DNA from: an uncultured bacterium
GTDB lineage: Bacteria > Patescibacteriota > Minisyncoccia > Phycocordibacterales > CAIRYW01
NCBI GenBank assembly: GCA_963766885.1
Contig: CAVYBO010000002.1
Location: 365,521 to 429,520 of the forward strand
DNA: 64,000 nt
Direction of reading: 5' to 3'
The notes under the pieces: generated by a model
Databases searched by the model: none
The model's input: the letters and a program-made list of their open reading frames with translations, nothing else
Told to the model about the DNA's origin: nothing
Made by a program: the position numbers and the translations under genes
In this document: positions 2,964 to 64,000 of the stretch, piece by piece
Position numbering within the stretch: position 1 is the stretch's first letter
Layout of the letters: each line of letters starts with the position of its first letter

Positions 2964-5624
2964 CTACTGGCAAGAATCGCATTGGGCAAGTTCTGCGGGA
3001 TCTGTTGGACAAGTCTTTGAATCGGTCATAATAACATTTGGTCTTGAAGGCATTGCGGCCTGCACTGGCACTGCAACTTTTTCTTTCTGTTTCTCTTTTG
3101 GATTTTCTTTCTCTGGTTTTATTTGAGCCTCTAAAGATTCCGAAGAAATTTTAGCCTTAGATTCTTTTTCTGGTTCTATGTCAAGACTCTTTTGAAGCGG
3201 CATATTGAAAGACTGCGGCGCTATATCGCTTTTGAATCTGACCGCTGCAAATCCCACTCGGCCCATTTGCTTTGACTTATTGACAGCAACAGTAGACTGC
3301 TCGGCGGTGTGTCTTGGTTTCATGTGCAGATAATACGTAGACTTGAGTCCTTTCTCCCAAGCTGTTGAATAAATACTCATCGCCTCATCAATATCCCTGC
3401 TTTGAAGGTACATATTTCTGGAAATCGCCTGATCCATCCATTTTTGAGCGCGCGCGGCAACTTCAATGAACGCATAAGGAGAAGTGGTAAAAGAAGTTTT
3501 GTAAATATTTTTTATGTGGTCTGGAATTCCTTCTATGGCCGAAATATCACCTTGATTTTCAATAATCAAATCTCTTGTCTCTTCCCAAATTCCCATGTTC
3601 TTTAAGTCTCGCACAAGATTATGATTGATATCAAGATATTTTCCTGAAATTTTATTTCTAGAAAAAGCTTGGGTAAATCTAGGATCAATTCCCGGAGTTG
3701 TTCCTGCCACAAGTCCTATATTTGCATTCGGCGCAATTGCCATAAGAGTTGCATTTCGGATGCCTCTTTTCACTTTCGCTCGAAGCACATCCCAGTTGAG
3801 CCCTTTATGCTTGCTTTCTCGAGAAACCGTTATTTTTTCATCTCTATCTTTTTCTAATTTGGCGATTGAATCAAAAGGTACCAAGCCTTTGGACCATTCC
3901 GAGCCTTTAAAATTATTATAAGCACCTCGATCTTGCGCCAGGTTTGCGCTCTCATCAATTGCCATGTAGCTTATGAATTCAAAAATCCTGTCTGCAAAGT
4001 CATAAGCGTATTCGCTATCATACGCCAAGCCGAGCCTCTCTATAGAATCAGCAAAGCCCATCACTCCAAGCCCTACCGCTCGATTTTGTTTGTCAGAGCG
4101 GTCCGCTTCGGGAATCGGAGATTTATTGATATCAATCAGGTTATCTAGCTGATGAACTGCCAAACGCACGCTTTCTTCCAGTTTGCCCCAGTTTATCTCT
4201 TTGTCCTTTATATGTGCTGGCAGGTTGATAGAAGTAAGGTTGCAAACCGCTACATTGTCTTTATCTTGTGGAAGGCAGATTTCAGTACAAAGATTAGACA
4301 TGTGAATAGTCCCAGTATTGTTATTTAGAGCCCTTAAATTGATGGTGTCCTTCCATACAATCCAAGGATGGGATGTTGTTTGAAGTGCAACCAGTATTTG
4401 CCTATATTGCTCTTGGGCTGGCACTTTTTTGAAAGTGCGCATTTTGCCCGCATCAGCAAGTTCTGCATACTCTTTGTATCTTTTGCTAAAAGCTGCGCCA
4501 TAAAGTTCGTTTAGGTCAGGAACATCTGCCGGATCAAACATGTACCAGGAATCGCCGCTTTTCACTCTCTTCATAAACTCATCAGAAACATAAGCGGCAG
4601 TATTTGCAGTTCTCATTCTAAGATAATCGTCTCCAGCATTGTGCTTCCAGTCAATGAATTCTGGAAAATCCAAGTGCCAGTTTTCCATATAGAAACAAAG
4701 CGCGCCCTTTTTCTTTCCACCTCTTTGAATTGCGCGAATTGCGGTATCAATAACTTTTGCAAAAGTTGTCGGTCCGGTTGAAACTCCGCCGAAGTTTGAT
4801 TTGAGCGGTGAACCTGATGCGCGAAGTTTTGTGATTGATGCGCCAAGTCCGCCAGAACCTTTTGACAAAAGCATCACATCAGAAACTGATTTGGCGATAT
4901 GCTCCATATTGTCGTGAATCTCCAAAAGAAAACAATTTGAAAGCGCCGGACGCGTTGTGCCTGCGCCAAGATTTGTTGATCCTGCCGCAATATATTCAAG
5001 CTTGGACATTTTGTTGTAAAACTTGATTGCCCACAAAGTCGGATCTTTTTCGTGGTAAGCAAGTCCCATCGCAACTCTCATAAAAAGAAATTGTGGAGTT
5101 TCAATTGTGCCTTGCTTCATATCCCGAATTGAATATCTGTTCATCAATCCATCAAGACCAGAATAAATAAACAGTTCGTCGCGCTCGGGCTTCAGCGCGT
5201 CTGCAATCTTTTCCAGATTATATTTATCGGCCATATCAGGATGAAGCCTTTTGTCCTTTATGCCGTCCTTTATATAAGAAAGAAAAGCCGCGCGGTGCTT
5301 TTGTTTGAAATCATCAAAGTCATCTTTGTCATATTCGCCGATAACCTTTCTATATACTGTTTTTAATAAGAGTCGTGTAGCAACTTTATCGTATTCTATG
5401 TCCTCTTTGATGTTTTGGATTGCGGTATTGATAGTCGCTTTGTCCAATTCGTCAGTAGTAATGCCATCATACAGAGTCAGTTGTGTTTCGGTAGCAATTT
5501 GAGTAACCATTGAGATTGGATCGAGCATCCCCTGGCACGCGCGTTCTATTGATCGGTTGATTTTATCTGCGTTGAAAGGCACTTTTGTGCCGTCGTGCTT
5601 GGTGATTGAGATTCCATTACTCAT
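2964..5624 (-). CDS. nrdA: ribonucleotide reductase class I alpha subunit, with ATP cone
   Basis: It has an N-terminal ATP cone (ITKHDGTKVPFNADKINRSIERAC), the active-site motif SNLCTEI and C-terminal redox cysteines (CPTDPAELAQCDSC). A K/E/P-rich linker of about 60 aa precedes the C-terminal cysteines. Confidence 0.9.
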   Translation of the reverse strand: MSNGISITKHDGTKVPFNADKINRSIERACQGMLDPISMVTQIATETQLTLYDGITTDELDKATINTAIQNIKEDIEYDKVATRLLLKTVYRKVIGEYDKDDFDDFKQKHRAAFLSYIKDGIKDKRLHPDMADKYNLEKIADALKPERDELFIYSGLDGLMNRYSIRDMKQGTIETPQFLFMRVAMGLAYHEKDPTLWAIKFYNKMSKLEYIAAGSTNLGAGTTRPALSNCFLLEIHDNMEHIAKSVSDVMLLSKGSGGLGASITKLRASGSPLKSNFGGVSTGPTTFAKVIDTAIRAIQRGGKKKGALCFYMENWHLDFPEFIDWKHNAGDDYLRMRTANTAAYVSDEFMKRVKSGDSWYMFDPADVPDLNELYGAAFSKRYKEYAELADAGKMRTFKKVPAQEQYRQILVALQTTSHPWIVWKDTINLRALNNNTGTIHMSNLCTEICLPQDKDNVAVCNLTSINLPAHIKDKEINWGKLEESVRLAVHQLDNLIDINKSPIPEADRSDKQNRAVGLGVMGFADSIERLGLAYDSEYAYDFADRIFEFISYMAIDESANLAQDRGAYNNFKGSEWSKGLVPFDSIAKLEKDRDEKITVSRESKHKGLNWDVLRAKVKRGIRNATLMAIAPNANIGLVAGTTPGIDPRFTQAFSRNKISGKYLDINHNLVRDLKNMGIWEETRDLIIENQGDISAIEGIPDHIKNIYKTSFTTSPYAFIEVAARAQKWMDQAISRNMYLQSRDIDEAMSIYSTAWEKGLKSTYYLHMKPRHTAEQSTVAVNKSKQMGRVGFAAVRFKSDIAPQSFNMPLQKSLDIEPEKESKAKISSESLEAQIKPEKENPKEKQKEKVAVPVQAAMPSRPNVIMTDSKTCPTDPAELAQCDSCQ

Positions 5625-42155: not shown

Positions 42156-42245
42156 GGAGAGATGGATGAGTGGTTTAAATCAGCAGTTTACTAAACTGCC
42201 GAGCCTTAACAGGCTCCGAGGGTTCGAATCCCTCTCTCTCCGCCA
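42156..42245 (+). tRNA. class II Ser-like tRNA with an unusual anticodon loop (TTACTAA, nominal anticodon ACT); CCA is encoded
   Basis: It has acceptor GGAGAGA/TCTCTCC, D-loop GAGTGGTTTAA, anticodon stem GCAGT/ACTGC, a long variable arm, T-loop TTCGAAT and discriminator G followed by CCA. Confidence 0.65.
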
Positions 42246-53619: not shown

Positions 53620-53692
53620 TGCGTGTGGAGGGGCTCGAACCCCCGACCGGACGAGTATAAGTCGTCTGCTCTACCAACTGAGCTACACACGC
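53620..53692 (-). tRNA. tRNA-Ile (TAT)
   Basis: It has a perfect acceptor GCGTGTG/CACACGC, anticodon loop CTTATAC and T-loop TTCGAGC. Confidence 0.8.
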
Positions 53693-55741: not shown

Positions 55742-56185
55742 ATGGATTTGGTCAAAAACAAAAAAGCCTTTTTCAACTATGAAATTCTCCAGGAATTTGA
55801 AGCTGGAGTGGAACTTTTGGGCTTGGAAGCCAAATCCATCCGAGCCGGTCAAGGCAATCTTGAAGGAGCGTTTGTGACAGTGCGCGGAAGTGAGGTTTTT
55901 TTGATTGGCTCAGATATTCCCGCCTTTCAACCCAAGAACGCGCCTCCATCGTATGAAAGGACACGGAATCGCAAGCTTCTTTTGACAAAACAGGAGATCC
56001 AAAAGCTGTCTGTAGAATCAGAAAACAAAGGGTTGACAATAGTGCCTATTTCGTTTTATAATAAAGGACACAAATTGAAGCTTCGCTTGGCAATAGCCAA
56101 AGGAAAGAAAAAGTTTGATAAAAGACAGTCAATCAAAAAGCGAGATACTGACAAAGAAATTAGAAGAACTTTGAAAAATCAATAG
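55742..56185 (+). CDS. smpB: SsrA-binding protein
   Basis: FNYEILQEFEAGVELLGLEAKSIRAG is the canonical SmpB N-terminus. Confidence 0.85.
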   Translation: MDLVKNKKAFFNYEILQEFEAGVELLGLEAKSIRAGQGNLEGAFVTVRGSEVFLIGSDIPAFQPKNAPPSYERTRNRKLLLTKQEIQKLSVESENKGLTIVPISFYNKGHKLKLRLAIAKGKKKFDKRQSIKKRDTDKEIRRTLKNQ

Positions 56186-56207
56186 CATCCAAAGAAACAA
56201 ATGTTGT

Positions 56208-56245
56208 CCCCCGAAAATTTTGAAAGCTTTCAAAATTTTCGGGGG
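56208..56245 (+). terminator. perfect 19-bp-arm palindrome between smpB and ssrA
   Basis: cccccgaaaattttgaaagctttcaaaattttcggggg. Its 3' arm overlaps the tmRNA 5' end. Confidence 0.6.
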
Positions 56246-56636
56246 ATGCTTGGCATAGACATTTGAAATTTCTTTGCTGTGCGCAATAGAGAATTCTCGA
56301 AATCTCTTAAACTCTCGAGAAAACTCAAGTGCTAAAGCACAGAAAGTCGCTTCTCCATATTTTGGAGCAAACGATTTCGCATTCGCTTTTGCTAGAGCGT
56401 AAGCTCGCAAACCGGATGCCATCCTTCCAGTTCCCTTCTCTCGAATTGGACAGGGTGTTATAAGATGAGAATAAGCTTGCGGATTTCTTCGCCCGCAAGA
56501 CAAAAATCTTAGAAGATCGAAAATAATGCGTTTCGTTTTGCTTTGAGCATTATTTTTTAAATTTCAAGCAAAAACACATTGCGTAGAGTCATCAAAGAAA
56601 CTCATTTGCACGCGGGTTCGATTCCCGCCATCTCCA
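56242..56636 (+). ncRNA. ssrA: tmRNA (ssrA)
   Basis: The 5' GGGGATG pairs with the 3' CATCTCC. The 3' end is tRNA-like (T-arm GCGGGTTCGATTCCCGC). A candidate tag ORF reads GCA AAC GAT TTC GCA TTC GCT TTT GCT AGA GCG TAA (ANDFAFAFARA*). It lies directly downstream of smpB. Confidence 0.7.
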
Positions 56637-57334
56637 CACTACAGGAATATTTCTCCTCAAATTTAGTTTATACATTGGTAACAAATAGTTTCGAGAGGTT
56701 CTAACCGTCACTTTTAAGCCATAATCGAAAACTATACAGTTTATAGACCAATTCTAATTGGAGCTTATTCTGTCTGCTTTAAAGAGGTTCTAACCAAAAC
56801 AAAGTCATAATCAAATATATTGTGTATAACGGCACTTGACTAACTTATACAAAAAGTATAAGCTTAGTAGGTACTTTGAAAAATCAAGGCAACTGGATAG
56901 TCATTAAAGACGGTTATTTCAGGCAGAATAAAAACTGCCTCAACTTTCCTCTATAGGTACTAGTAGGAAAAGAAAATTCACCGGCACATCTGTGCATTAA
57001 TGTCTCTATTTACAAGGCTCATATATTTTTGGTCATAAGCTCAATTGATTCATGGCGTGTCAATGTCGTGTCATCTTTGCGAGTCAGGAATTTTTTTTGG
57101 TCAGAATTGGATGGGATAATTATAGAGATAGTTATATGGTAGGGGTTACTCAACGATCGAATGGTCAGTGAGTTTCACAACAAAACGCTACCACCGAAAC
57201 AAATGACCATTCAATCTGCGAGTCACCAATTAATAGAAAGAATTAATTCCCAAATAAACAAAATATGAAAAATTATTGGTATTCGTCACACAACAGTATT
57301 GCTTTGAGCGTTTTGTATGTAAGGGAGGCAAATT

Positions 57335-57412
57335 ATGGTAAGACAGCATCTAATCCGAATTCTCCAGATTTTAGTCTGGATTTTAAGGATTGTTCTGGAC
57401 ATCATAAGCTAG
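57335..57412 (+). CDS. small hydrophobic ORF (25 aa) with a strong Shine-Dalgarno; candidate leader or small peptide
   Basis: AAGGGAGG sits 6 nt before the ATG. The peptide is MVRQHLIRILQILVWILRIVLDIIS. The complement of the Shine-Dalgarno (gcctccctt) lies right at its stop. Confidence 0.3.
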   Translation: MVRQHLIRILQILVWILRIVLDIIS

Positions 57413-57437
57413 CCTCCCTTTAATCGTATTCTATATT

Positions 57438-57761
57438 ATGAACAACTTTCAAGATTTACTAAAAAAAATAAGAAATAAAGCTGACCTGACTCAAGAAGAT
57501 TTAGCAAAAGCTCTTGGAGTTTCAACTGTACTTATTTCTATGATTGAAACGGGACAAAAACAAGTTTCGAGAAATTTTATTGAAAACCTAGCTGAAAAAT
57601 TATCAGTTCATCCTAGTTCAATCACACCTTTCTCGTTTATTGAAAAAGATATGGATATCAAAAAGCTTTCAGCTCTTGAGCGAAACTTAATTAAAGCTGG
57701 AAGTAAATTCCAAGATTATTTAATTACTACGAAAGCGAAAAAACTAAGAGAGTATGTCTAA
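57438..57761 (+). CDS. XRE-family (Cro/C1-type) HTH transcriptional regulator
   Basis: It has the HTH LTQEDLAKALGVSTVLISMIETGQ. Its stop overlaps the RT start, indicating translational coupling. Confidence 0.75.
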   Translation: MNNFQDLLKKIRNKADLTQEDLAKALGVSTVLISMIETGQKQVSRNFIENLAEKLSVHPSSITPFSFIEKDMDIKKLSALERNLIKAGSKFQDYLITTKAKKLREYV

Positions 57762-58764
57762 CAACAAGCGCTACCCGAACATCTCTATACGAAGTAAAAA
57801 CGAAATTGCAAAACGTATTTCGTCATCCTCTTTTTCTAAAAATGAAGCGTTAGATTTAATTAATGATGTTATTAAAAATTTTGACAGCTATTGGTATGAC
57901 AGTAAACGTTCCGAACCTGAAAAAAATAAATATGTAAGAAGCGCTGCAAAATCTCCTAAACTTAAAAAGCTTCTTGAGCTTATAAATGCAAAAATCCTTA
58001 CTCCGTATGATTATTTAATACCAGAATTTATTTATGGAGGAATTTCAAGAAGGAATAATATTCAAGCCGCTTATCACTTACTCGGCAACCAGCGAAATCG
58101 CACATTACTTAAGTTAGACGTGCAAAGCTTTTTTGAACAGATTACAAAAGAAAGGGTTTTCCACTTCTTTAATAATAAATCTCAATGCACTGTCGAAGCA
58201 TCAAATTTACTTGCTAAGTTCTGTTGTGTACCACGTGGTCCTAAAAATTCAGGGTCAACTGATATTATTCTTGCACGTGGCTTCGCAACTTCTTCTAGAC
58301 TTGCTGTATGGTGTAATCTCGATACTTTCGAACATTTGAATTGGAAAATTAAAAAGAAACTAAAAGGACACGACGCGCAAGTAGCAATATATGTCGACGA
58401 CATAGGAATTAGTGCAAGCAAAGTAAGTATTGAACAAATGGAAACTGCAAAAGAATTGGCTATAAATATATTGGAGAAAAGTGATTATAATCAATCTTTA
58501 CCCGTACATAGAGATGCTCGGAAAAACAAGATTATTCAATTTAATAAAGGTGCTGAACACTTAGGAATAAAACTTGGTAGAACCAAGTTAACACTTGGTA
58601 ACAAATCACGATCAAAAATAGATAAAATCAAAGAAGCAATCAAAGAAGCGGAAACAGAAAATGAAAAAAATACTTTGAGAGAAAAATATAAAGCTCATCA
58701 TCGCTATAGACAACAAGTAAAGAATATCGCGGTTATTAAAGATATAAGAAAAAAATATGACTAA
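57754..58764 (+). CDS. reverse transcriptase (compact, retron/defense-RT-like)
   Basis: It has RT motifs: YGGISRRNNIQAAYHL (motif 2, NAxxH-like), LLKLDVQSFFEQI (motif A), VPRGPKNSGS (motif B region), IYVDDIGIS (motif C, YxDD) and HLGIKLG (motif 7). Confidence 0.75.
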   Translation: MSNNKRYPNISIRSKNEIAKRISSSSFSKNEALDLINDVIKNFDSYWYDSKRSEPEKNKYVRSAAKSPKLKKLLELINAKILTPYDYLIPEFIYGGISRRNNIQAAYHLLGNQRNRTLLKLDVQSFFEQITKERVFHFFNNKSQCTVEASNLLAKFCCVPRGPKNSGSTDIILARGFATSSRLAVWCNLDTFEHLNWKIKKKLKGHDAQVAIYVDDIGISASKVSIEQMETAKELAINILEKSDYNQSLPVHRDARKNKIIQFNKGAEHLGIKLGRTKLTLGNKSRSKIDKIKEAIKEAETENEKNTLREKYKAHHRYRQQVKNIAVIKDIRKKYD

Positions 58765-58822
58765 AAATATTATAAAAATACTTAGTGCGCTAGCATTGAT
58801 TAGTCTCATCTTTTTGTACACT

Positions 58823-59947
58823 GTACTTCCCCCATTTCATCAGACACTAACCTTGTTAGCTGAATTGTATTCTCGAGCCGACGAAAGTGCAAATTGCACG
58901 GGTGACATTTTGAGGGCGGTATGAATCCTGGTGTTGTTGTAAATGTAAATTGTTTGGTAAATAGCGAACACCAGCTCTCCCAATGTTTTGAATCGGGAAG
59001 AATCCCCAAGATCAATTTTGAATTTGTCGTAGAAAGATTCCTGGTACCCATTCTCCCACGGACAACCTGGAGCAGAACGAGAAATCAATACCCCGACGGT
59101 CTGCAGCGCCTGAATGAACACCTCCGAGTTGTATTCACTGCCGTTGTCAGAGTGGAAAATTTTTGGTCTGGGATTATTTTGAAGAGCCGACATGAATGAT
59201 GCTAAAACCAATTGAACAGCATGGGTGGTGTATACTGACAACCCAACAATTTTTCTGGTGAACAAATCTTCGACTGTAGCCACATAGATGGTTTTGTTTT
59301 CAAAGGGTATGCGGGTGAAGTCTGTCACCCAGATATGATTTTCATATTGGGTAAATAACTTTGATATTCTTCGATTTTTTCCATCTTCTACCACGTCTGC
59401 GATATGCCTTGATACCGAAAAGTTTCATCACTCGTTCAATCGGTTTGTGGTTTCTTTTGAGGGCAAGGGCGATGCGTGGAGAACCATATGAAGGATGCTC
59501 TCTGAGAACTTCTTCAATCTGACATTTTAGTTCCCAATCTTTGTCAGGTTTCTTTGGTTTGTAGTAGAGAGTGCTGCGGGAGATCCCAAGCTCTCTGGCC
59601 CGAAGAGTTTTGGGAGTCTCACTATTTTCTTTCAATTCTTTTTTTGGGTTTCTGAGAGCTTTAGAGTAATTTCTCCAACTAACTGAAGCAGTTGAGCATT
59701 TTCTCGCTTGAGTTTAATTACCTCTGAAAGAGTTGGCTGACCTTTGGTTTTCTTGGCTATCCACCCATATATGGTGACATCGCTGATGCCATGCTCTTTG
59801 GCTGCTTGGACTACACTGATACCATCATTCTTGATTCTGTTAATAATCTGCTCCTTTATTTCAGGGGCTATTTTTTGTCTTTTCATATGCTTGTATATTA
59901 GCTTCTAATTATACAAGGTTGGTGTATGAAATTTGGGGGGAGGGCCA
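58823..59947 (-). mobile_element. IS3-family insertion sequence with a degenerate orfB
   Basis: Its imperfect terminal inverted repeats are tgtacttcccccatttcat...ccttgt and acaagg...atgaaatttggggggagggcca. orfA (59632-59886) is an HTH transposase. orfB is split (59342-59635 and 58840-59394) and carries the DDE motifs HSDNGSEY and PWENG. Confidence 0.75.
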
Positions 59948-59972
59948 TTGCTTGATGATGGGTACATATTAC

Positions 59973-60428
59973 TTAGAAAGATTCAGTAAAGTCAGCAGGG
60001 TTAAAAATATCAGCAAAATCTTTTGTTTGTCCGCAGAGTTCTGTATTTTTTAGTTGTTCTTTTGAGAAAAACTCTAGCTTCTCACATTCTTCTGACGGAG
60101 TAAAATCAAGATTTTCTAATTCTATTCGGTAAGCCACCACAAAGGAATAATACCAACCTAATTTGCGCGCATTGTTCTCAAATCTGTGTGGCCACACGTA
60201 CACTGGGGAGTCTGATATTTTTGTAACTTTTAATCCCATCTCTTCTTTTATTTCTCTTTTGAAACCAGATTTTATGTCTTCACCAAAATCTAGACCTCCG
60301 CCCGGTAATTCCCATTTTCCGCCCAATTCTTTTGATTCAAGGGCTAAAAGAACCTTACCATCTCTAACGCAGAGACCTTTGATCGTAACTCTATAGAAAT
60401 TGTCTGGGAATCTTTCCGAGTGTTCCAT
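59973..60428 (-). CDS. NUDIX hydrolase
   Basis: It has a Nudix box: GGGLDFGEDIKSGFKREIKEEMGL. Confidence 0.7.
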   Translation of the reverse strand: MEHSERFPDNFYRVTIKGLCVRDGKVLLALESKELGGKWELPGGGLDFGEDIKSGFKREIKEEMGLKVTKISDSPVYVWPHRFENNARKLGWYYSFVVAYRIELENLDFTPSEECEKLEFFSKEQLKNTELCGQTKDFADIFNPADFTESF

Positions 60429-60678
60429 GTTAGTAGGATTAGTATACCAAAACCAATATTGTTTTATAGCTTTGCTCCTTTGTTTTTAGCGTATATACTT
60501 ATTTCACAACCAAATATTCCGAAGACCTAACCCTTGAAAACCTCAAGGCACGGTCACAAATCGACGTGAATAAAAAACCTATCATTAGGGCGTTCACGTC
60601 GTTATACAGGGAAACTTGTATAGGAGCTTCGGCTCCCCTAGTGGTAGGCTTTTTGTTTCTCCACTAGGACACACGATT

Positions 60679-61290
60679 ATGTATAACGATGTCTTAGAAC
60701 AAATAACTGAAGACTATTTCAAATCAAAGGGATATTTTACTTTGCATAATGTTCCGTATTCTCTTTCAAAACAAACTGCTTCAGATATTGATGTCATTGG
60801 CATTCACCCTACAAAGAAAGATATCTCAAAAGTCATTGTCGTCAGTTGCAAGTCTTGGGATTCAGGAGTCGATCTCAAAGCATTGTTAAATTTGATAAAG
60901 GCAGCGCCAGACAAAAAGATAAAAACAGGAGTGATGCGATTGGAGAGATTCAAAGAAGTGATAAACAAAGAGTGGATCACTGCTCTCAAAGCTAAAGTGT
61001 TTGAACTCACAGGACAGAAGAAATTTAAACTATATTTTTCTGCAACTAAATATAAAAATCTTGATTTAAAAAATCAGTTTATTGAATATTGCAAATCCAC
61101 ACTTACTGACTGCCCTGTCGAACTCATTTCTCTTGAAGAAATGTTGTTGGATATGCAAAAACAAATCAAAGACAATAAATCTAAAAGTCCTCTAAAGTCT
61201 TACTCTGCTCGTATTATTCAACTTATCAACCAGAGCGGAGGTGAAATTTTGTATTCAGGAGAGATTTACAAATCAAAAGGTCTGAGATAA
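60679..61290 (+). CDS. hypothetical protein, possible PD-(D/E)xK nuclease fold (Hjc/Mrr-like)
   Basis: SDIDVIGIHP...KVIVVSCKSW resembles the PD...(E/S)xK core. The start was chosen at the internal ATG at 60679. Confidence 0.35.
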   Translation: MYNDVLEQITEDYFKSKGYFTLHNVPYSLSKQTASDIDVIGIHPTKKDISKVIVVSCKSWDSGVDLKALLNLIKAAPDKKIKTGVMRLERFKEVINKEWITALKAKVFELTGQKKFKLYFSATKYKNLDLKNQFIEYCKSTLTDCPVELISLEEMLLDMQKQIKDNKSKSPLKSYSARIIQLINQSGGEILYSGEIYKSKGLR

Positions 61291-61324
61291 AAGTGTGATG
61301 TTTATAAGTTAATTTAAAAATCAT

Positions 61325-61516
61325 ATGAATGAATTAGGAGGAATATTAGTAGGAGTGATATTAATAGCAATCGTTGGATCTATATATTTTACTCCTACAA
61401 TCTATGCTTATCATGCCAATCATAAAAACAAAGAAGCTATTTTTATTCTAAATCTGCTTCTCGGTTGGACAGTTTTGGGGTGGATTGGAGCTTTGATCTG
61501 GTCTGCTACAAAATAA
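61325..61516 (+). CDS. superinfection-immunity (Imm-like) small membrane protein
   Basis: IFILNLLLGWTVLGWIGALIWS matches the conserved LNLFLGWTGIGWI..LIW core of T4 Imm-type proteins. It has two transmembrane helices. Confidence 0.55.
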   Translation: MNELGGILVGVILIAIVGSIYFTPTIYAYHANHKNKEAIFILNLLLGWTVLGWIGALIWSATK

Positions 61517-61563
61517 AAAACCCACTGGAGATCGGAGCCAGTGGATCTTTGTAATTATATATC

Positions 61564-62076
61564 TTACGCTATCTTTTTCAAATATTTTGGAAACACTTTA
61601 TAAAAATTCTCTGTTTCTGGGAGCATCCATTTAAAACAGTCTTGCCATTGTTCTTCATTATTTTGGAGAGGTTTCTTTTGAATAGTTAGAGTGGCTCTGC
61701 TTACCCACATACTTGGGATGTTTCTCCACTTTAATTTCTTTCCCAAATCTTTTTCAATATCTGCTCTGTGTTTTTTTAGTTTAAAGTAAAACTTTGGGTT
61801 CTCTGGAATAGACAGTTCTATTTCGCATATTCCTTTTCGCAGAAAGACTTTAGAAGCTATATGTGCTTCTTTTTTATTAAGCTTGATATTCATGAAGTGA
61901 TAGGGTTGGCTTTTTGGCAGTTTTAGCTTTGTTTTGTTTAACTTTGCGTATTTCTTGAAATCAGTCCAAAACTTAAGTTGTTTCTTTTTGTGTATTTCTC
62001 TTTCTTCTTTTGTGAATATCCTCCTTGCCATATATGGAGATATCTTAACATAGCGGTTTTGTGGAGTTATAAACAT
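61564..62076 (-). CDS. hypothetical protein (DUF4268-like?)
   Basis: It is 170 aa and K-rich. It has weak resemblance to proteins encoded near restriction-modification systems. Confidence 0.3.
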   Translation of the reverse strand: MFITPQNRYVKISPYMARRIFTKEEREIHKKKQLKFWTDFKKYAKLNKTKLKLPKSQPYHFMNIKLNKKEAHIASKVFLRKGICEIELSIPENPKFYFKLKKHRADIEKDLGKKLKWRNIPSMWVSRATLTIQKKPLQNNEEQWQDCFKWMLPETENFYKVFPKYLKKIA

Positions 62077-62125
62077 CTATTCTAACCAGAGATGCTAAAA
62101 GATTAATGATATAATTTAGACATCA

Positions 62126-63394
62126 ATGGTTGTTCAAATAAAGAAAAAAAGAGATAAATATCTAAGAAAAGATGACTTCTCTTGGGATTATCGTGGTGAG
62201 AAAACAAAATCATATACTCACGGAATTCATACCTACCCAGCTATGTTTATCCCTCAAGTTGCTAGGAGACTTTTAGAAAAATATAGTAAAGAAGGTGATA
62301 CTATCTGTGATATTTTTTGTGGTTCTGGAACTGCATTAGTTGAAAGTAAACTCTTAGGAAGAAATGCTTATGGCATTGATCTTAATCCTCTAGCAATTTT
62401 TTTAGCAAAAGCAAAAACAACACCAATCAATCCAATTGTCCTGAATCACACATATGCAAAATTATTAAAAAATATTTCAGAAATTGAGGAAAGTAATTTG
62501 ATAAAGCCAGATTTTAAAAACATAGATTTTTGGTTTAAAGAAAAAGTCATTACTCAATTATCAAAAATCAATAAAGCGATAGGACAGATTCACGATGAAA
62601 GTGTTCGTAACTTTATTACAGTTGGGTTTAGTGAAACTGTCAGACACTCATCAAACACTAAAACTCATGAGTTCAAGTTAGTAAGAAACAAAGGAGAGAA
62701 GTTAGAAAATCATGATCCTGATGTTCTGGGTATTTTCAAAAAGTTTACAGAAAGAAATATTGCGGGCATGACAGAATTTTATAGGGACACTAGCTCTAGT
62801 TGGATAAAAGCAATTTATGGGGACTCTTCTAAAGATAATGATATAAAATCTTCTTCTATTGATCTGATCATAACTTCTCCACCATATGGTGATAGCAGAA
62901 CAACTGTGGCATATGGACAATTCTCGAGACTATCATCACAATGGATTAACATATTTGAAAATCCAAATGACGCTTCTGGTGTAGATAACAAGTTACTTGG
63001 TGGTAAAGCGACAAAAACATTAATTCATTCTCTAGCCTCTAAGAAGTTAGCTGAGTCACTTGAAAAAATTGCGTCTCAAGATGAGACTCGGGCAAGAGAT
63101 GTTTTAAGTTTTAATATCGGCTTAAATGATTGCTTAAAACAAGCCCACAGAATTCTAAAACCAAAAAAGTATTTCTGTCTTGTTATAGGTAATAGACAAG
63201 TAAAACAAGTAAGAATCCCGACAGATTTCATTATTGTAGAATTAGCTCAAGCTATCGGCTTCTCGTGTGAAGAAATAATCGTGAGAAATATCCCCGGAAA
63301 AAGAATGCCTATGAAGAATTCTCCAACAAATAAGATTGGTGCACTTGAAGAGACAATGAACAAAGAAAGTATAGTGGTGCTGAAGAAAATCTAA
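62126..63394 (+). CDS. type II DNA methyltransferase (N6-adenine or N4-cytosine, alpha-class order)
   Basis: It has motif I (DIFCGSGTALVE) and motif IV (IITSPPYGD). Confidence 0.8.
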   Translation: MVVQIKKKRDKYLRKDDFSWDYRGEKTKSYTHGIHTYPAMFIPQVARRLLEKYSKEGDTICDIFCGSGTALVESKLLGRNAYGIDLNPLAIFLAKAKTTPINPIVLNHTYAKLLKNISEIEESNLIKPDFKNIDFWFKEKVITQLSKINKAIGQIHDESVRNFITVGFSETVRHSSNTKTHEFKLVRNKGEKLENHDPDVLGIFKKFTERNIAGMTEFYRDTSSSWIKAIYGDSSKDNDIKSSSIDLIITSPPYGDSRTTVAYGQFSRLSSQWINIFENPNDASGVDNKLLGGKATKTLIHSLASKKLAESLEKIASQDETRARDVLSFNIGLNDCLKQAHRILKPKKYFCLVIGNRQVKQVRIPTDFIIVELAQAIGFSCEEIIVRNIPGKRMPMKNSPTNKIGALEETMNKESIVVLKKI

Positions 63395-64000
63395 ATAATT
63401 TGACTATATTCATCAAATATATGAAGAAAGTCTCTTTTGCTAATTCTAAAACCCGTACCATGATCATGGTATTTTCCTTTATTCTTCCCGCTTCTGTATA
63501 CTCCAATTCTAATATCAATTTTTAGTTTATCTTCTTCAATAGCTTTCTTAAACTTTTTTATATTCAAACCTGACAGAAGAAATGCTTCGGTATAATGGAA
63601 TTCTTCATTCACCGATTTTTTCTCTCCCCTAGTTTCAGCAAAGACAAGTAGTATTTTATCCGATTTAGTTTTTAGAATGTCATTAAAAATACTTACTGGC
63701 CAACATGCTTCGATTTTATGATTATTTTCTAATATTAATTTATCATCAGTAAATTTAATTCTAAGGCCTTGATTATTCGTACGAGAACCGTACATAGTAG
63801 AGTGTAAATTATATTCACCATGAATATCTAAATATTTGTTTTTCTCAAAAAGTACCTTATTCACACCACGGGGCACAGGAGATTTTGTTGCTATGGTAAG
63901 CATACTATCGGATCCGATTCTTTTTGATTTTAACTCAATTTCACCAACATCAGGTACTTGAAGATTATTTTCCGGTATACCTAAGAGATCTTCGAGTGTT
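63391..64000 (-). CDS. type II restriction endonuclease, partial (continues beyond the window end)
   Basis: It is convergent with the methyltransferase and overlaps its 3' end by 4 nt. The upstream in-frame extension contains PDVGEIELK (PD...ExK). Confidence 0.5.
   Translation of the reverse strand, partial: TLEDLLGIPENNLQVPDVGEIELKSKRIGSDSMLTIATKSPVPRGVNKVLFEKNKYLDIHGEYNLHSTMYGSRTNNQGLRIKFTDDKLILENNHKIEACWPVSIFNDILKTKSDKILLVFAETRGEKKSVNEEFHYTEAFLLSGLNIKKFKKAIEEDKLKIDIRIGVYRSGKNKGKYHDHGTGFRISKRDFLHIFDEYSQII

What the first reader, a model, noticed from the sequence alone, without database searches (positions are those of the whole stretch)
56637..60428. Island at the 3' end of ssrA: structured non-coding DNA, a small ORF, a coupled HTH–reverse transcriptase operon (retron-like), a decayed IS3 and a NUDIX gene
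Features seen directly in the sequence:
- Directly 3' of the tmRNA there is ~800 nt with no ORF, unusual for this compact genome. It contains several strong stem-loops (e.g. AATGGTCA...GTTTC...GAAAC...TGACCATT at 57158-57210, aggcag/ctgcct at 56920-56940, gcacatctgtgc at ~56983).
- A 25-codon hydrophobic ORF follows, with a perfect Shine-Dalgarno.
- An XRE-type HTH gene then overlaps by 8 nt the start of a 336-aa reverse transcriptase carrying all RT motifs (NAxxH-like motif 2, motif A LDVQSFF, YVDD).

Interpretation: a compact RT with no fused nuclease/maturase/CRISPR context, translationally coupled to a small HTH protein and preceded by structured RNA, is the architecture expected for a retron or another defense-associated RT (HTH-associated retron families have been described). 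tmRNA genes are classic island-integration sites. An IS3 copy is inserted immediately after the RT stop, separating it from a convergent NUDIX gene, so the original effector complement may be disrupted. An RT system of this kind in a Patescibacteria-like genome would be new.
Basis: partly seen in the sequence, partly recalled or inferred. Interest (0 to 1): 0.8.

Follow-up and report, generated by a model that had tools for sequence, protein, structure and literature searches.

The report
Type VI retron beside the tmRNA gene
This is an intact type VI retron, a known reverse-transcriptase anti-phage system, made of a structured RNA that locks up a 25-residue toxin gene, a small DNA-binding protein and the reverse transcriptase, sitting in a variable gene island directly after the tmRNA gene of a Patescibacteria-type genome; it is a new member of a known kind.

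Summary
The HTH and RT best match the PADLOC type VI retron models (HTH_VI 4e-16; RT_VI 6.5e-31, ahead of RT_IV and RT_V). PDB profile hits are retron Ec86/Ec83 RTs only. Sixty-seven species-level genomes, nearly all Patescibacteria, carry the RT, and 61 have the HTH gene directly upstream.

The "non-coding" DNA at about 56870-57437 is the retron's hybrid RNA. It has a long-range a1/a2-like duplex, covarying hairpins, a variable domain and a loop-to-linker pseudoknot. A Shine-Dalgarno/anti-Shine-Dalgarno helix closes around the 25-codon ORF (97% paired in 53 loci, every pair with compensatory changes).

That ORF is conserved in 55 of 58 loci with a coding-type substitution pattern. It is the likely small-protein (SP) toxin, much shorter than the described 55-79-aa SPs.

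Related genomes lose similarity exactly at the tmRNA 3' end, so the island reading holds. The IS3 and NUDIX genes are bystanders, and the retron's effector complement is intact.

Type VI retrons from candidate-phyla bacteria are already catalogued (Retron-Cle1), so the claimed novelty fails. Extras: a DnaA box at the retron promoter and an overlapping second reading frame.

The parts
56242..56637 (+). tmRNA gene (ssrA). It is context, not part of the retron, and marks the left border of the variable island.
   Evidence: ARAGORN and Rfam RF00023 at 97.8 bits. Nucleotide similarity to two related genomes (L069, L071) runs from recG through ftsH, smpB and ssrA and stops at 56637.
56821..56829 (+). 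DnaA-box-like 9-mer TGTGTATAA, one mismatch from TGTGGATAA, 5 nt upstream of the -35 box.
   Evidence: Conserved column block in A2 and A4. Of 19 exact DnaA 9-mers in 458 kb of related loci, 16 lie 520-720 nt upstream of the HTH start, in either orientation.
56835..56862 (+). Putative promoter: -35 TTGACT (56835-40), a 16-nt spacer and -10 TATAAG (56857-62). The near-invariant palindrome TATAC-N5-GTATA (56846-60) is a candidate operator for the HTH protein.
   Evidence: TAC and GTAT are invariant in 19 loci, and the block is conserved in 36 loci by nhmmer. Promoter and operator roles are inferred; the consensus scan did not call it.
56870..57437 (+). Hybrid RNA (hyRNA) of the retron: an msr-msd-like structured part plus the SP coding sequence. 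The 5' end is inferred from the promoter.
   Evidence: nhmmer conservation from about 56810 to 57437 in 13 or more loci. MFE fold z = -4.0. Covariation.
56884..56895 (+). P1 5' strand (a1-like), which pairs with 57294-57307.
   Evidence: The best inter-segment duplex falls in the same place in all 19 loci tested, with different sequences, and its 3' strand abuts the pseudoknot strand in 17 of 19 (1 nt off in two). It is also present in the MFE fold.
56921..56940 (+). P2 hairpin (AGGCAG / CTGCCT).
   Evidence: 91% of cells paired; 4 of 6 pairs have changes on both sides.
56945..56970 (+). P3 hairpin (pyrimidine run CTTTCCTCT / AGGAAAAG).
   Evidence: Present in the MFE fold. Alignment support is inconclusive: 49% paired, with register problems.
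56996..57140 (+). Variable domain, mostly one long imperfect hairpin. One of two candidates for the reverse-transcription template (msd).
   Evidence: Not alignable between loci. It is 98-290 nt in relatives and usually dominated by one long hairpin, with 17 of 18 fold z-scores between -0.3 and -3.9 and one at -4.6. The template role is inferred by analogy with SL3 of Retron-Sen3.
57144..57227 (+). Conserved 84-nt hairpin P4-P5-P6. Its apical loop (57180-57188) forms the pseudoknot. It is the second candidate for the msd.
   Evidence: In 53 loci: P5 84% paired with 8 of 9 pairs compensatory; P4 70% with 7 of 8; P6 about 82%.
57294..57307 (+). P1 3' strand (a2-like).
57308..57316 (+). Pseudoknot 3' strand GCGTTTTGT, which pairs with loop ACAAAACGC at 57180-57188.
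   Evidence: 94-97% of cells paired in 53 loci, and all 9 pairs have changes on both sides. The same result holds in 19 loci.
57321..57329 (+). Shine-Dalgarno region of SP (AAGGGAGGC), sequestered by pairing with 57412-57420.
   Evidence: 90-97% paired in 53 loci, and all 9 pairs have compensatory changes.
57335..57412 (+). SP: a 25-aa hydrophobic, amphipathic peptide MVRQHLIRILQILVWILRIVLDIIS. It is the likely toxin/effector.
   Evidence: The same frame carries the motif LRI(I/L)xxIIxI(I/V)RI(L/I)xD(I/L)(I/L) in 55 of 58 loci. Codon-position entropy is 1.52/0.92/1.73. Seventeen of 25 residues are hydrophobic, and the hydrophobic moment is 0.61 against 0.38 for shuffles. Toxicity is inferred from Retron-Vpa2 and Retron-Sen3.
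57412..57420 (+). Anti-Shine-Dalgarno GCCTCCCTT, which overlaps the last base of the SP stop codon.
57438..57761 (+). Cro/C1 (XRE)-type HTH protein, 107 aa.
   Evidence: Pfam HTH_3 1.1e-12 and PADLOC HTH_VI 4.2e-16. It lies directly upstream of the RT in 61 of 67 loci. Its size fits the 91-110 aa of cluster 2_1.
57754..58764 (+). Retron reverse transcriptase, 336 aa, with YVDD. It overlaps the HTH gene by 8 nt.
   Evidence: PADLOC RT_VI 6.5e-31, covering 2-272 of 279 profile positions, against RT_IV 1.3e-18 and RT_V 8.5e-12. The PDB profile search hits only retron Ec86/Ec83 RTs. All invariant family residues are present.
58822..59947 (-). IS3-family insertion sequence, single copy in the window, with orfB broken. 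It is a bystander 57 nt past the RT stop.
   Evidence: HTH_Tnp_1, HTH_21 and rve fall in three ORFs. Imperfect terminal repeats with TG...CA ends. An independent assembly contig of the same locus breaks 26 nt inside it.
59973..60428 (-). NUDIX hydrolase gene. It is island cargo, not a retron component.
   Evidence: Pfam NUDIX 3e-13 and PADLOC PDC-S07 7e-12. No NUDIX gene lies next to the RT in relatives; there is one weak hit in 67 loci, upstream of the retron.

Best explanation
The locus is a complete type VI retron (SP-HTH-RT with a hybrid RNA) carried in a variable, low-GC island that starts at the 3' end of ssrA.

**Shown here**
- A conserved promoter region precedes an RNA of roughly 570 nt.
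- The RNA's 5' part pairs with a segment about 400 nt downstream (a1/a2-like duplex P1).
- That duplex encloses two small hairpins, a variable long-hairpin domain and a conserved 84-nt hairpin.
- The loop of that hairpin pairs with the 9 nt lying between P1 and the ribosome-binding site (a pseudoknot).
- The ribosome-binding site of the 25-codon SP gene pairs with the 9 nt at its stop codon, and the AUG pairs inside the coding sequence.
- So almost every base from 57294 to 57338 is held in long-range helices.

**Inferred from Retron-Vpa2 and Retron-Sen3**
- SP is a small hydrophobic toxin kept silent by this RNA lock.
- On phage infection the RT copies part of the RNA into single-stranded DNA. 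This opens the lock, SP is made, and the infected cell stops growing.

**My specific, untested proposal**
- Reverse transcription of the 84-nt hairpin breaks the pseudoknot next to the ribosome-binding site. Alternatively, the resulting DNA, whose loop has the same sequence as the pseudoknot's 3' strand, competes with it.
For: **Family**
- PADLOC HTH_VI 4.2e-16 and RT_VI 6.5e-31, clearly above the other retron types, Drt3a and the Cas-associated RT.
- The NCBIfam best hit is the retron St85 RT model.
- The PDB profile search hits only retron Ec86/Ec83 RTs.

**Conserved operon**
- 67 loci carry the RT and 61 have the HTH gene directly upstream, often with the same 8-nt overlap.

**RNA**
- In 53 loci 85.6% of cells are paired, against 35-46% when partners are slid.
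- The covariation score is 0.476 against about 0.09, and 0 of 500 shuffles reach it.
- All 9 pseudoknot pairs and all 9 SD/anti-SD pairs carry compensatory changes.
- The same holds on 19 loci that include the 5' domain.
- P1 was found without an alignment at the same place in all 19 loci.

**SP**
- It is conserved in 55 of 58 loci with a coding-type codon-position pattern and forms an amphipathic helix.

**Mechanistic precedent**
- Retron-Vpa2 has a hyRNA with msr-msd plus a translationally repressed SP. msDNA is needed for SP translation and is sufficient in trans, and the HTH represses reverse transcription.
- In Retron-Sen3 the SP is a toxin and the HTH an antitoxin.

**Island**
- Similarity to relatives ends at base 56637, and relatives carry different cargo there.
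- GC falls from 0.40-0.47 to 0.32-0.35.
Against: - Nothing here shows expression, msDNA or toxicity.
- The SP is 25 aa, against 55-79 aa for described SPs. It matches no family, so its equivalence rests on position, conservation and hydrophobic character.
- The six type VI retrons tested in E. coli, including the candidate-phyla one, gave no detectable msDNA.
- The two studied type VI retrons use different control logic, so the trigger and the step that releases SP cannot be read from sequence.
- The template region and the priming G are not identified.
- The P3 and P1c/d helices were not supported on the alignment.
- No Rfam family covers the RNA.
- The RT was not placed in a tree with reference type VI RTs.
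Confidence: 0.85

Rival explanations
1. Same type VI retron, but with Sen3-like logic. SP is made constitutively and is neutralised protein-to-protein by the HTH antitoxin. RT-made DNA is constitutive, and the trigger acts after translation.
For: Retron-Sen3 works this way. The HTH protein also resembles type II antitoxins: HipB, MqsA and HigA families hit weakly in NCBIfam and MqsA_antitoxin in Pfam.
Against: The SP ribosome-binding site and start codon sit in helices kept by compensatory changes in 53 loci. That argues for selection on translational closure, as in Vpa2. Sen3's ribosome-binding site is also predicted to be sequestered, so this is not decisive.
Confidence: 0.25
2. The small ORF is not translated. 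The region is only structured RNA, and the effector is something else in the island (NUDIX, the Mrr-like nuclease) or is absent.
For: The ORF is only 25 codons and has no family match. RNA helices overlap it, so some conservation is RNA-driven. One relative (L028) has an in-frame TGA.
Against: Codon position 2 is the most conserved and position 3 the least (0.92 against 1.73 bits), which fits a hydrophobic peptide under selection. An SD at the right spacing and a start codon (ATG, GTG or TTG) are kept in 55 of 58 loci, and in several lineages the frame extends N-terminally to 35-56 aa. NUDIX and Mrr genes do not travel with the RT.
Confidence: 0.08
3. The RT belongs to another class: group II intron maturase, DGR, Abi/UG/DRT or CRISPR-associated.
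For: There are weak secondary hits to Drt3a (6e-9) and to a Cas-associated RT model (4e-7). The Pfam RVT_1 score is only just above its cutoff.
Against: RT_VI scores 105.6 bits over nearly the whole model, against 33.6 bits for Drt3a. There is no group II intron RNA or other Rfam family. There is no template/variable repeat pair and no maturase, nuclease or Cas context. PDB hits are retron RTs only.
Confidence: 0.02
4. The retron is a decaying remnant, silenced by the neighbouring IS3 insertion.
For: An IS sits 57 nt after the RT stop and may have removed a terminator or other 3' element. The IS itself is broken.
Against: The promoter block, all supported helices, and the SP, HTH and RT genes are intact and keep every family-invariant residue. 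An independent assembly has the identical sequence.
Confidence: 0.07

Closest known systems
Retron-Vpa2 (type VI retron of Vibrio parahaemolyticus; Zhang et al., bioRxiv 10.1101/2025.10.22.683967)
   Same: Gene order is hyRNA(SP)-HTH-RT. One structured transcript carries both the retron RNA and the SP coding sequence. The SP ribosome-binding site and start codon are buried in helices, and long-range inverted repeats resemble a1/a2. The HTH is about 100 aa and the RT is compact.
   Different: SP is 25 aa here against 55 aa in Vpa2. The RNA is about 570 nt against about 470 nt. Here the ribosome-binding site pairs with the sequence at the SP stop codon, and a hairpin loop forms a pseudoknot beside it. 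Whether Vpa2 has these exact contacts could not be checked, because figures are not held. The host is a Patescibacteria-type genome. Triggers in Vpa2 are phage recombination proteins; nothing is known here.
Retron-Sen3 and the cl2075 lineage (Garcia-Rodriguez et al., bioRxiv 10.64898/2026.04.27.721009)
   Same: SP toxin, HTH antitoxin and RT. [quoted passage not shown]
   Different: Sen3's SP is 79 aa with two or three helices. Sen3 makes ssDNA constitutively and is controlled after translation. Its lineage is Beta- and Gammaproteobacteria. No sequence similarity of the SPs could be tested.
Retron-Cle1 / Mestre-729 (type VI retron of Candidatus Levybacteria, in the Khan et al. census)
   Same: A type VI retron from a candidate-phyla (Patescibacteria) bacterium, so the host range claimed as new is already on record.
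   Different: It was tested as RT plus ncRNA only in E. coli, with no msDNA detected. In the papers read here I found no description of its small ORF or full RNA.
hok/mok-type type I toxin mRNAs (from my own knowledge; not tested here)
   Same: A short hydrophobic peptide gene whose ribosome-binding site is closed by pairing with downstream mRNA sequence, and an overlapping second reading frame that starts upstream.
   Different: No antisense RNA is evident here. Release is expected to depend on a reverse transcriptase and an HTH protein. This is a resemblance only, with no homology.

Membership tests
Type VI retron (Mestre et al. 2020 classification) | The RT belongs to the type VI RT clade (clade 3 subgroup). 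| tested here: met
   The PADLOC RT_VI model is best at 6.5e-31 and 105.6 bits, covering 2-272 of 279 positions. Next are RT_IV at 65.4 bits and RT_V at 42.9 bits. This is by HMM score only; no tree with reference RTs was built.
Type VI retron (Mestre et al. 2020 classification) | A small (91-110 aa) Cro/C1-type HTH protein (cluster 2_1) lies upstream of, or overlaps, the RT gene. | tested here: met
   The protein is 107 aa with an 8-nt overlap. HTH_3 scores 1e-12 and PADLOC HTH_VI 4.2e-16. The pairing is kept in 61 of 67 loci.
Type VI retron (Mestre et al. 2020 classification) | A small accessory protein (SP) gene lies upstream of the HTH gene (SP-HTH-RT). | tested here: inconclusive
   A conserved, coding-pattern 21-31-codon ORF sits in the right place. 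However, it is far shorter than described SPs (55-79 aa) and matches no model.
Type VI retron (Mestre et al. 2020 classification) | A structured RNA carries the retron ncRNA and the SP coding sequence, with the SP ribosome-binding site sequestered and a1/a2-like inverted repeats (hyRNA). | tested here: met
   Covariation on 19 and 53 loci and an alignment-free P1 duplex. The published type VI covariance models were not available to run.
Type VI retron (Mestre et al. 2020 classification) | RT-dependent single-stranded DNA (msDNA) is made from the RNA. | not testable with these tools
   This needs an experiment. The template and priming nucleotide were not identified.
Type VI retron (Mestre et al. 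2020 classification) | Anti-phage defence through SP toxicity. | not testable with these tools
   Inferred from Vpa2 and Sen3.
Group II intron | Intron RNA domains surround the RT ORF, and the RT carries maturase/X and often endonuclease domains. | tested here: not met
   There is no group II intron Rfam hit in the window or at relaxed threshold upstream and in the first 47 nt of the RT gene (56600-57800). The RT is 336 aa with no extra domain. There are no intron RTs among the PDB hits.
Diversity-generating retroelement | A template repeat and a near-identical variable repeat in a target gene lie near the RT. | tested here: not met
   No direct repeat longer than 31 nt exists in 56200-64000, and none has the required identity.
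Integrase-borne genomic island at ssrA | A tyrosine or serine integrase next to ssrA and a direct repeat of the ssrA 3' end at the far border. | tested here: not met
   There is no integrase among the ORFs from 56638 to 64000 and no repeat of the ssrA 3' end in that stretch. The far border lies beyond the window. The variable-hotspot property itself is met.

The most novel reading that the evidence does not exclude
In this Patescibacteria clade, the retron RNA may be a lock that the reverse transcriptase itself opens. The loop of the conserved 84-nt hairpin holds the linker next to the toxin's ribosome-binding site in a pseudoknot. Copying that hairpin into DNA yields a molecule whose loop has the same sequence as the held linker. 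That DNA could displace the linker, in cis or in trans, and let a 25-residue mini-toxin be translated. This would give a base-pair-level explanation of the reported 'msDNA derepresses SP translation'. Two more layers may be added: a DnaA box at the promoter and a mok-like overlapping leader frame.
Probability: 0.2. Interest if true: 0.6.

Novelty: new member of a known kind. Interest (0 to 1): 0.4.

Why it matters
Type VI retrons are under active study, and only two have been dissected, with conflicting control logic. This clade offers three things.

- **Comparative depth:** more than 50 diverged copies give unusually clean covariation, which pins down which RNA contacts close the toxin's translation start.
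- **A minimal effector:** the toxin is only 21-31 residues, small enough to have been missed by gene callers.
- **Host context:** these are tiny, reduced genomes in which keeping an abortive-infection system is notable.

The helices named here are directly testable by compensatory mutation. As a discovery it is modest: the system type, its HTH-RT pairing and its presence in candidate-phyla bacteria are already published.

Tried and rejected
- **Rfam, relaxed threshold, 56600-57800:** found nothing beyond the tmRNA end, so no curated family covers the RNA.
- **Promoter/terminator consensus scan:** gave no more sites than shuffles and missed the conserved promoter block.
- **First mapping of P1 and P4 onto alignment A4:** scored poorly (46% and 21% paired). 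For P4, my coordinates were 2 nt off. For P1, a bulge shifts the register. P4 was re-tested correctly and P1 without an alignment.
- **52-codon ORF at 57265-57423 as the SP:** considered and rejected as the main product. In the overlap its third codon position is the most conserved, and U at SP position 2 makes stop codons impossible in that frame.
- **tblastn of the RT against plasmids:** gave only distant RTs at 25-29% identity, of no use for annotation transfer.
- **Repeated motif AGAGGTTCTAACC after the tmRNA:** not found at the equivalent place in relatives.
- **Supplements of the Vpa2 paper and of Mestre 2020:** held no reference sequences, so no direct comparison with Vpa2, Sen3 or Cle1 proteins was possible.
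- **One script timed out** and was rerun with fewer shuffles.

Full report
**1. What is in the sequence**

ARAGORN and Rfam place a tmRNA gene at 56242-56637. It sits directly after smpB (55742-56185) and ftsH.

The next 800 nt have no ORF longer than 52 codons. A 107-aa ORF follows at 57438-57761, then a 336-aa ORF at 57754-58764, overlapping it by 8 nt, ATGTCTAA.
- Pfam calls the first an XRE/Cro-type HTH (HTH_3, 1e-12).
- Pfam calls the second a reverse transcriptase (RVT_1, 2.8e-7).
- LDVQSFF and IYVDDIG are present.

Downstream on the minus strand lies an IS3-type element at 58822-59947, with TG...CA ends and imperfect terminal repeats.
- orfA (HTH_Tnp_1) is intact.
- orfB is split into an HTH_21 piece and an rve piece in different frames.

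A NUDIX gene follows at 59973-60428.

**2. Which reverse transcriptase**

Against PADLOC, the RT matches the type VI retron model best:
- RT_VI 6.5e-31, 105.6 bits, covering 2-272 of 279 positions.
- RT_IV 65.4 bits and RT_V 42.9 bits, the two types that literature reports as sisters of type VI.
- Drt3a 33.6 bits.

The HTH matches HTH_VI at 4.2e-16. NCBIfam's best model is the retron St85 RT, below its cutoff. A profile of 31 homologues matches only retron Ec86 and Ec83 RTs in the PDB.

The stated refuters do not apply:
- Rfam finds no group II intron RNA.
- There is no template/variable repeat pair.
- There is no fused or adjacent maturase, nuclease or Cas gene.

**3. Relatives**

The RT has 378 homologues at E <= 1e-5. 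The best 120 are 49-66% identical, and those that carry names are almost all candidate-phyla bacteria.

A scan of one genome per species found 67 loci, nearly all Patescibacteria: Paceibacterota, Saccharibacteria, Collierbacteria, Wolfebacteria, Doudnabacteria and others. In 61 of them the HTH gene lies directly upstream, often with the same 8-nt overlap. Four of the six exceptions lack upstream sequence.

**4. The 'non-coding' DNA is a conserved RNA**

nhmmer with the window's 800 nt finds nucleotide-level similarity in 13 or more loci, always over window positions about 56810-57437. A profile of the 5' part finds it in 36 loci at a constant distance from the HTH gene.

Alignments show, in order:
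- A DnaA-box-like 9-mer.
- A TTGAC(A/T) -35 box, a spacer containing the near-invariant palindrome TATAC-N5-GTATA, and a TATAAG-like -10.
- A 5' strand that pairs far downstream (P1).
- Hairpins P2 and P3.
- A domain of 98-290 nt that does not align but usually folds as one long hairpin.
- A conserved 84-nt hairpin (P4-P6).
- An A-rich linker.
- The P1 3' strand.
- Nine nucleotides complementary to the apical loop of the 84-nt hairpin.
- The Shine-Dalgarno sequence and the small ORF.
- At the ORF's stop codon, nine nucleotides complementary to the Shine-Dalgarno region.

**5. Test of the structure**

On 53 loci (3' domain):
- 85.6% of cells are standard pairs, against 35-46% when the 3' partners are slid by 1-3 columns.
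- The covariation score is 0.476 against 0.07-0.10, and no shuffle of 500 reaches any measure.
- The pseudoknot is 94-97% paired, and all nine pairs change on both sides. The window has ACAAAACGC/GCGTTTTGT where the consensus has CGGAACGCC/GGCGTTCCG.
- The SD/anti-SD helix is 90-97% paired, and all nine pairs are compensatory.
- P5 is 84% paired with 8 of 9 pairs compensatory.
- P4 is 70% paired with 7 of 8 pairs compensatory.

On 19 loci that include the 5' domain, P2 is 91% paired.

P1 could not be scored on fixed columns because of bulges. Without an alignment, the best duplex between the 5' segment and the segment upstream of the pseudoknot strand falls at the same place in all 19 loci. 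The sequences differ between loci, and the duplex abuts the pseudoknot strand in 17 of 19 loci and ends 1 nt short of it in two.

The single-sequence fold of 56866-57437 recovers P1, P2, P3, P5, P6 and the SD/anti-SD helix, with z = -4.0. P3 and the small hairpin after P1 remain unsupported on the alignment.

**6. The small ORF**

A short ORF in the same frame, ending 15-60 nt before the HTH start, is present in 55 of 58 loci.
- It starts with ATG in most, and with GTG or TTG in L012, L017 and L044.
- It is usually 21-31 codons, extended N-terminally to 34-56 codons in about eight loci.
- It carries the motif LRI(I/L)xxIIxI(I/V)RI(L/I)xD(I/L)(I/L).
- On a codon alignment the entropies at positions 1, 2 and 3 are 1.52, 0.92 and 1.73 bits. 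That is the signature of a hydrophobic peptide under purifying selection.
- The window's peptide has 17 hydrophobic residues out of 25. Its helical hydrophobic moment is 0.61 over 18 residues, against a shuffle mean of 0.38, and 3.9% of shuffles reach it.
- It matches no Pfam or PADLOC model.

A second frame (57265-57423 in the window) is open in nearly all loci. In the overlap its third position is the SP's second position, mostly U. Stops cannot arise there, and the variability pattern is the reverse of coding. Its conserved 'residues' coincide with the pseudoknot strand, the SD and the anti-SD. I treat it as a by-product, with one reservation recorded in section 9.

**7. What is known, and how this most likely works**

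Type VI retrons were defined as a clade-3 RT with a 91-110-aa Cro/C1 HTH protein and, in some, 75-79-aa auxiliary proteins (Mestre et al. 2020, PMC7736814). Two preprints dissect them.

In Retron-Vpa2:
- An RNA of about 470 nt (hyRNA) holds the msr-msd and a translationally repressed 55-aa toxin (SP).
- RT, HTH and RNA form a complex, and the HTH represses reverse transcription.
- msDNA appears on triggering by phage recombination proteins.
- msDNA is necessary for SP translation and sufficient in trans.

In Retron-Sen3:
- SP is a constitutively made toxin.
- HTH is its antitoxin.
- RecBCD inhibition is the trigger.

The window's locus has the same parts in the same order, and its RNA keeps the toxin's initiation region closed by three adjoining long-range helices. 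I therefore take the Vpa2-type translational lock as the most likely logic, at about 0.5 for that step. The Sen3-type logic is the main rival.

Steps shown here:
- Family assignment by HMM.
- The conserved operon.
- The RNA helices.
- Coding-type conservation of SP.

Steps inferred:
- Promoter and operator roles.
- Toxicity.
- msDNA synthesis.
- The trigger.
- Which domain is the template.

**8. Island**

SmpB homologues at 71-73% identity lead to related genomes with the same recG ... NT5C - ftsH - smpB - ssrA order.
- BLASTN similarity to two of them runs through ssrA and ends at window base 56637, the tmRNA 3' end.
- Beyond it each genome carries something different. One has a DNA methylase plus an HATPase_c_3 protein. 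Another has a beta-lactamase-like gene. A third has unknown ORFs. Shared genes (SET domain, cold-shock protein) then resume.
- In the window, GC drops from 0.40-0.47 to 0.32-0.35 from 56.6 kb to the end.
- The cargo after the retron is defence-flavoured. It comprises NUDIX (PDC-S07), an Mrr-like nuclease, DUF4268 (PDC-S11) and a type II methylase with an MvaI/BcnI-like endonuclease.

There is no integrase and no repeat of the ssrA end within the window, and the right border lies beyond base 64000. Related retron copies sit in many different contexts, several next to tRNA genes and one 2 kb from ssrA. The association is therefore with hotspots, not with ssrA as such.

**9. IS3, NUDIX and loose ends**

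The IS lies 57 nt after the RT stop and 25 nt from the NUDIX stop. It interrupts no retron part. An independent short assembly of the same locus is 100% identical over 56609-58847 and breaks 26 nt inside the IS. NUDIX does not accompany the RT elsewhere.

Unexplained items:
- The DnaA box. Sixteen of the 19 exact 9-mers in 458 kb of loci sit just upstream of the retron promoter.
- A strong Shine-Dalgarno in front of the overlapping -1 frame in Saccharibacteria-type and a few other loci. This recalls the mok leader of hok.
- Two direct repeats of about 45 nt between ssrA and the promoter.

**10. Verdict**

This is an intact type VI retron, so the finding is real but it is a new member of a known kind. 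The claim of novelty for Patescibacteria does not hold, because Retron-Cle1 from Candidatus Levybacteria is in the published census.

What this analysis adds:
- Identification of the 25-codon ORF as the probable mini-toxin of a large candidate-phyla clade.
- A base-pair-level map of the RNA lock, including a strongly covarying pseudoknot.
- The precise left border of the ssrA island.

Noticed in passing
window 56821-56829, and L010, L018-L020, L023, L025-L028, L030, L038, L047-L049, L055, L057, L058 about 500-720 nt upstream of their HTH genes: A DnaA-box 9-mer (TGTGGATAA/TTATCCACA; one mismatch in the window) sits just upstream of the retron promoter's -35 box, in either orientation. Sixteen of the 19 exact copies in 458 kb of related loci lie in that 200-nt zone. 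This suggests a link between retron expression and DnaA. I found no mention of it in the papers read.
   Followed up: partly
window 57265-57423 (+), and the equivalent frame in L009, L012, L017, L031, L039, L040, L042, L044, L050, L051, L060, L063, L067: An ORF of 47-61 codons in the -1 frame overlaps the whole SP gene and is open in almost all loci. In the overlap it looks non-coding. In Saccharibacteria-type and a few other loci, however, its ATG follows a strong GAAAGGAG Shine-Dalgarno. It could be a mok-like leader whose translation opens the SD/anti-SD helix.
   Followed up: partly
window 60524-60636 (+): Rfam LOOT RNA (RF03000) scores 72.3 bits against a gathering score of 46.4. It lies between the divergent NUDIX and Mrr-like genes and overlaps the mechanical TTG start of the latter, whose real start is probably the ATG about 60 nt further on.
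   Followed up: no
window 56692-56738 and 56781-56827: Two direct repeats of about 45 nt, with core AGAGGTTCTAACC at 56694 and 56783, lie in the unassigned 175 nt between the tmRNA and the retron promoter. They are absent from the equivalent place in related loci.
   Followed up: partly
window 60616-63903: The rest of the island is defence-flavoured. It holds an Mrr_cat nuclease-like gene, a 63-aa membrane protein, DUF4268 (PADLOC PDC-S11, matching only the C-terminal half of those models) and a type II N6/N4 methylase. The 170-aa MvaI/BcnI-like endonuclease lacks the first 65-80 positions of its family profiles, so it may be truncated.
   Followed up: no
window 53620-53692 (-), also L069 5579-5652 and L071 7182-7255: A tRNA-Ile with anticodon TAT (UAU) is conserved in the related genomes. 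From my own knowledge, this is an uncommon way for bacteria to read AUA.
   Followed up: no
window 42156-42245 (+): ARAGORN calls a tRNA-Ser with anticodon ACT next to a normal tRNA-Ser(GCT). This is an unusual anticodon and deserves a check.
   Followed up: no
window 56207-56246: A perfect 20+20-nt palindrome (TCCCCCGAAAATTTTGAAAG / CTTTCAAAATTTTCGGGGGA) spans the smpB-ssrA gap and the first bases of the tmRNA. Part of it is also conserved in L071.
   Followed up: no
L028 about 3580-3660: In this Paceibacterota locus the SP frame has an in-frame TGA after seven codons (MKFFRAL*ILLQVVRILRDLLC), while the rest of the peptide motif is kept. This could be a decayed copy, a sequencing error or read-through.
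   Followed up: no
L069 11135-14085, L071 11193-13568, and the contig of P0124: The ssrA 3' flank is a cargo hotspot in this lineage. Each related genome carries a different insert there before shared genes resume (SET-domain protein, cold-shock protein). The inserts are a DNA methylase with an HATPase_c_3 protein, a beta-lactamase-like gene, and unknown ORFs.
   Followed up: partly
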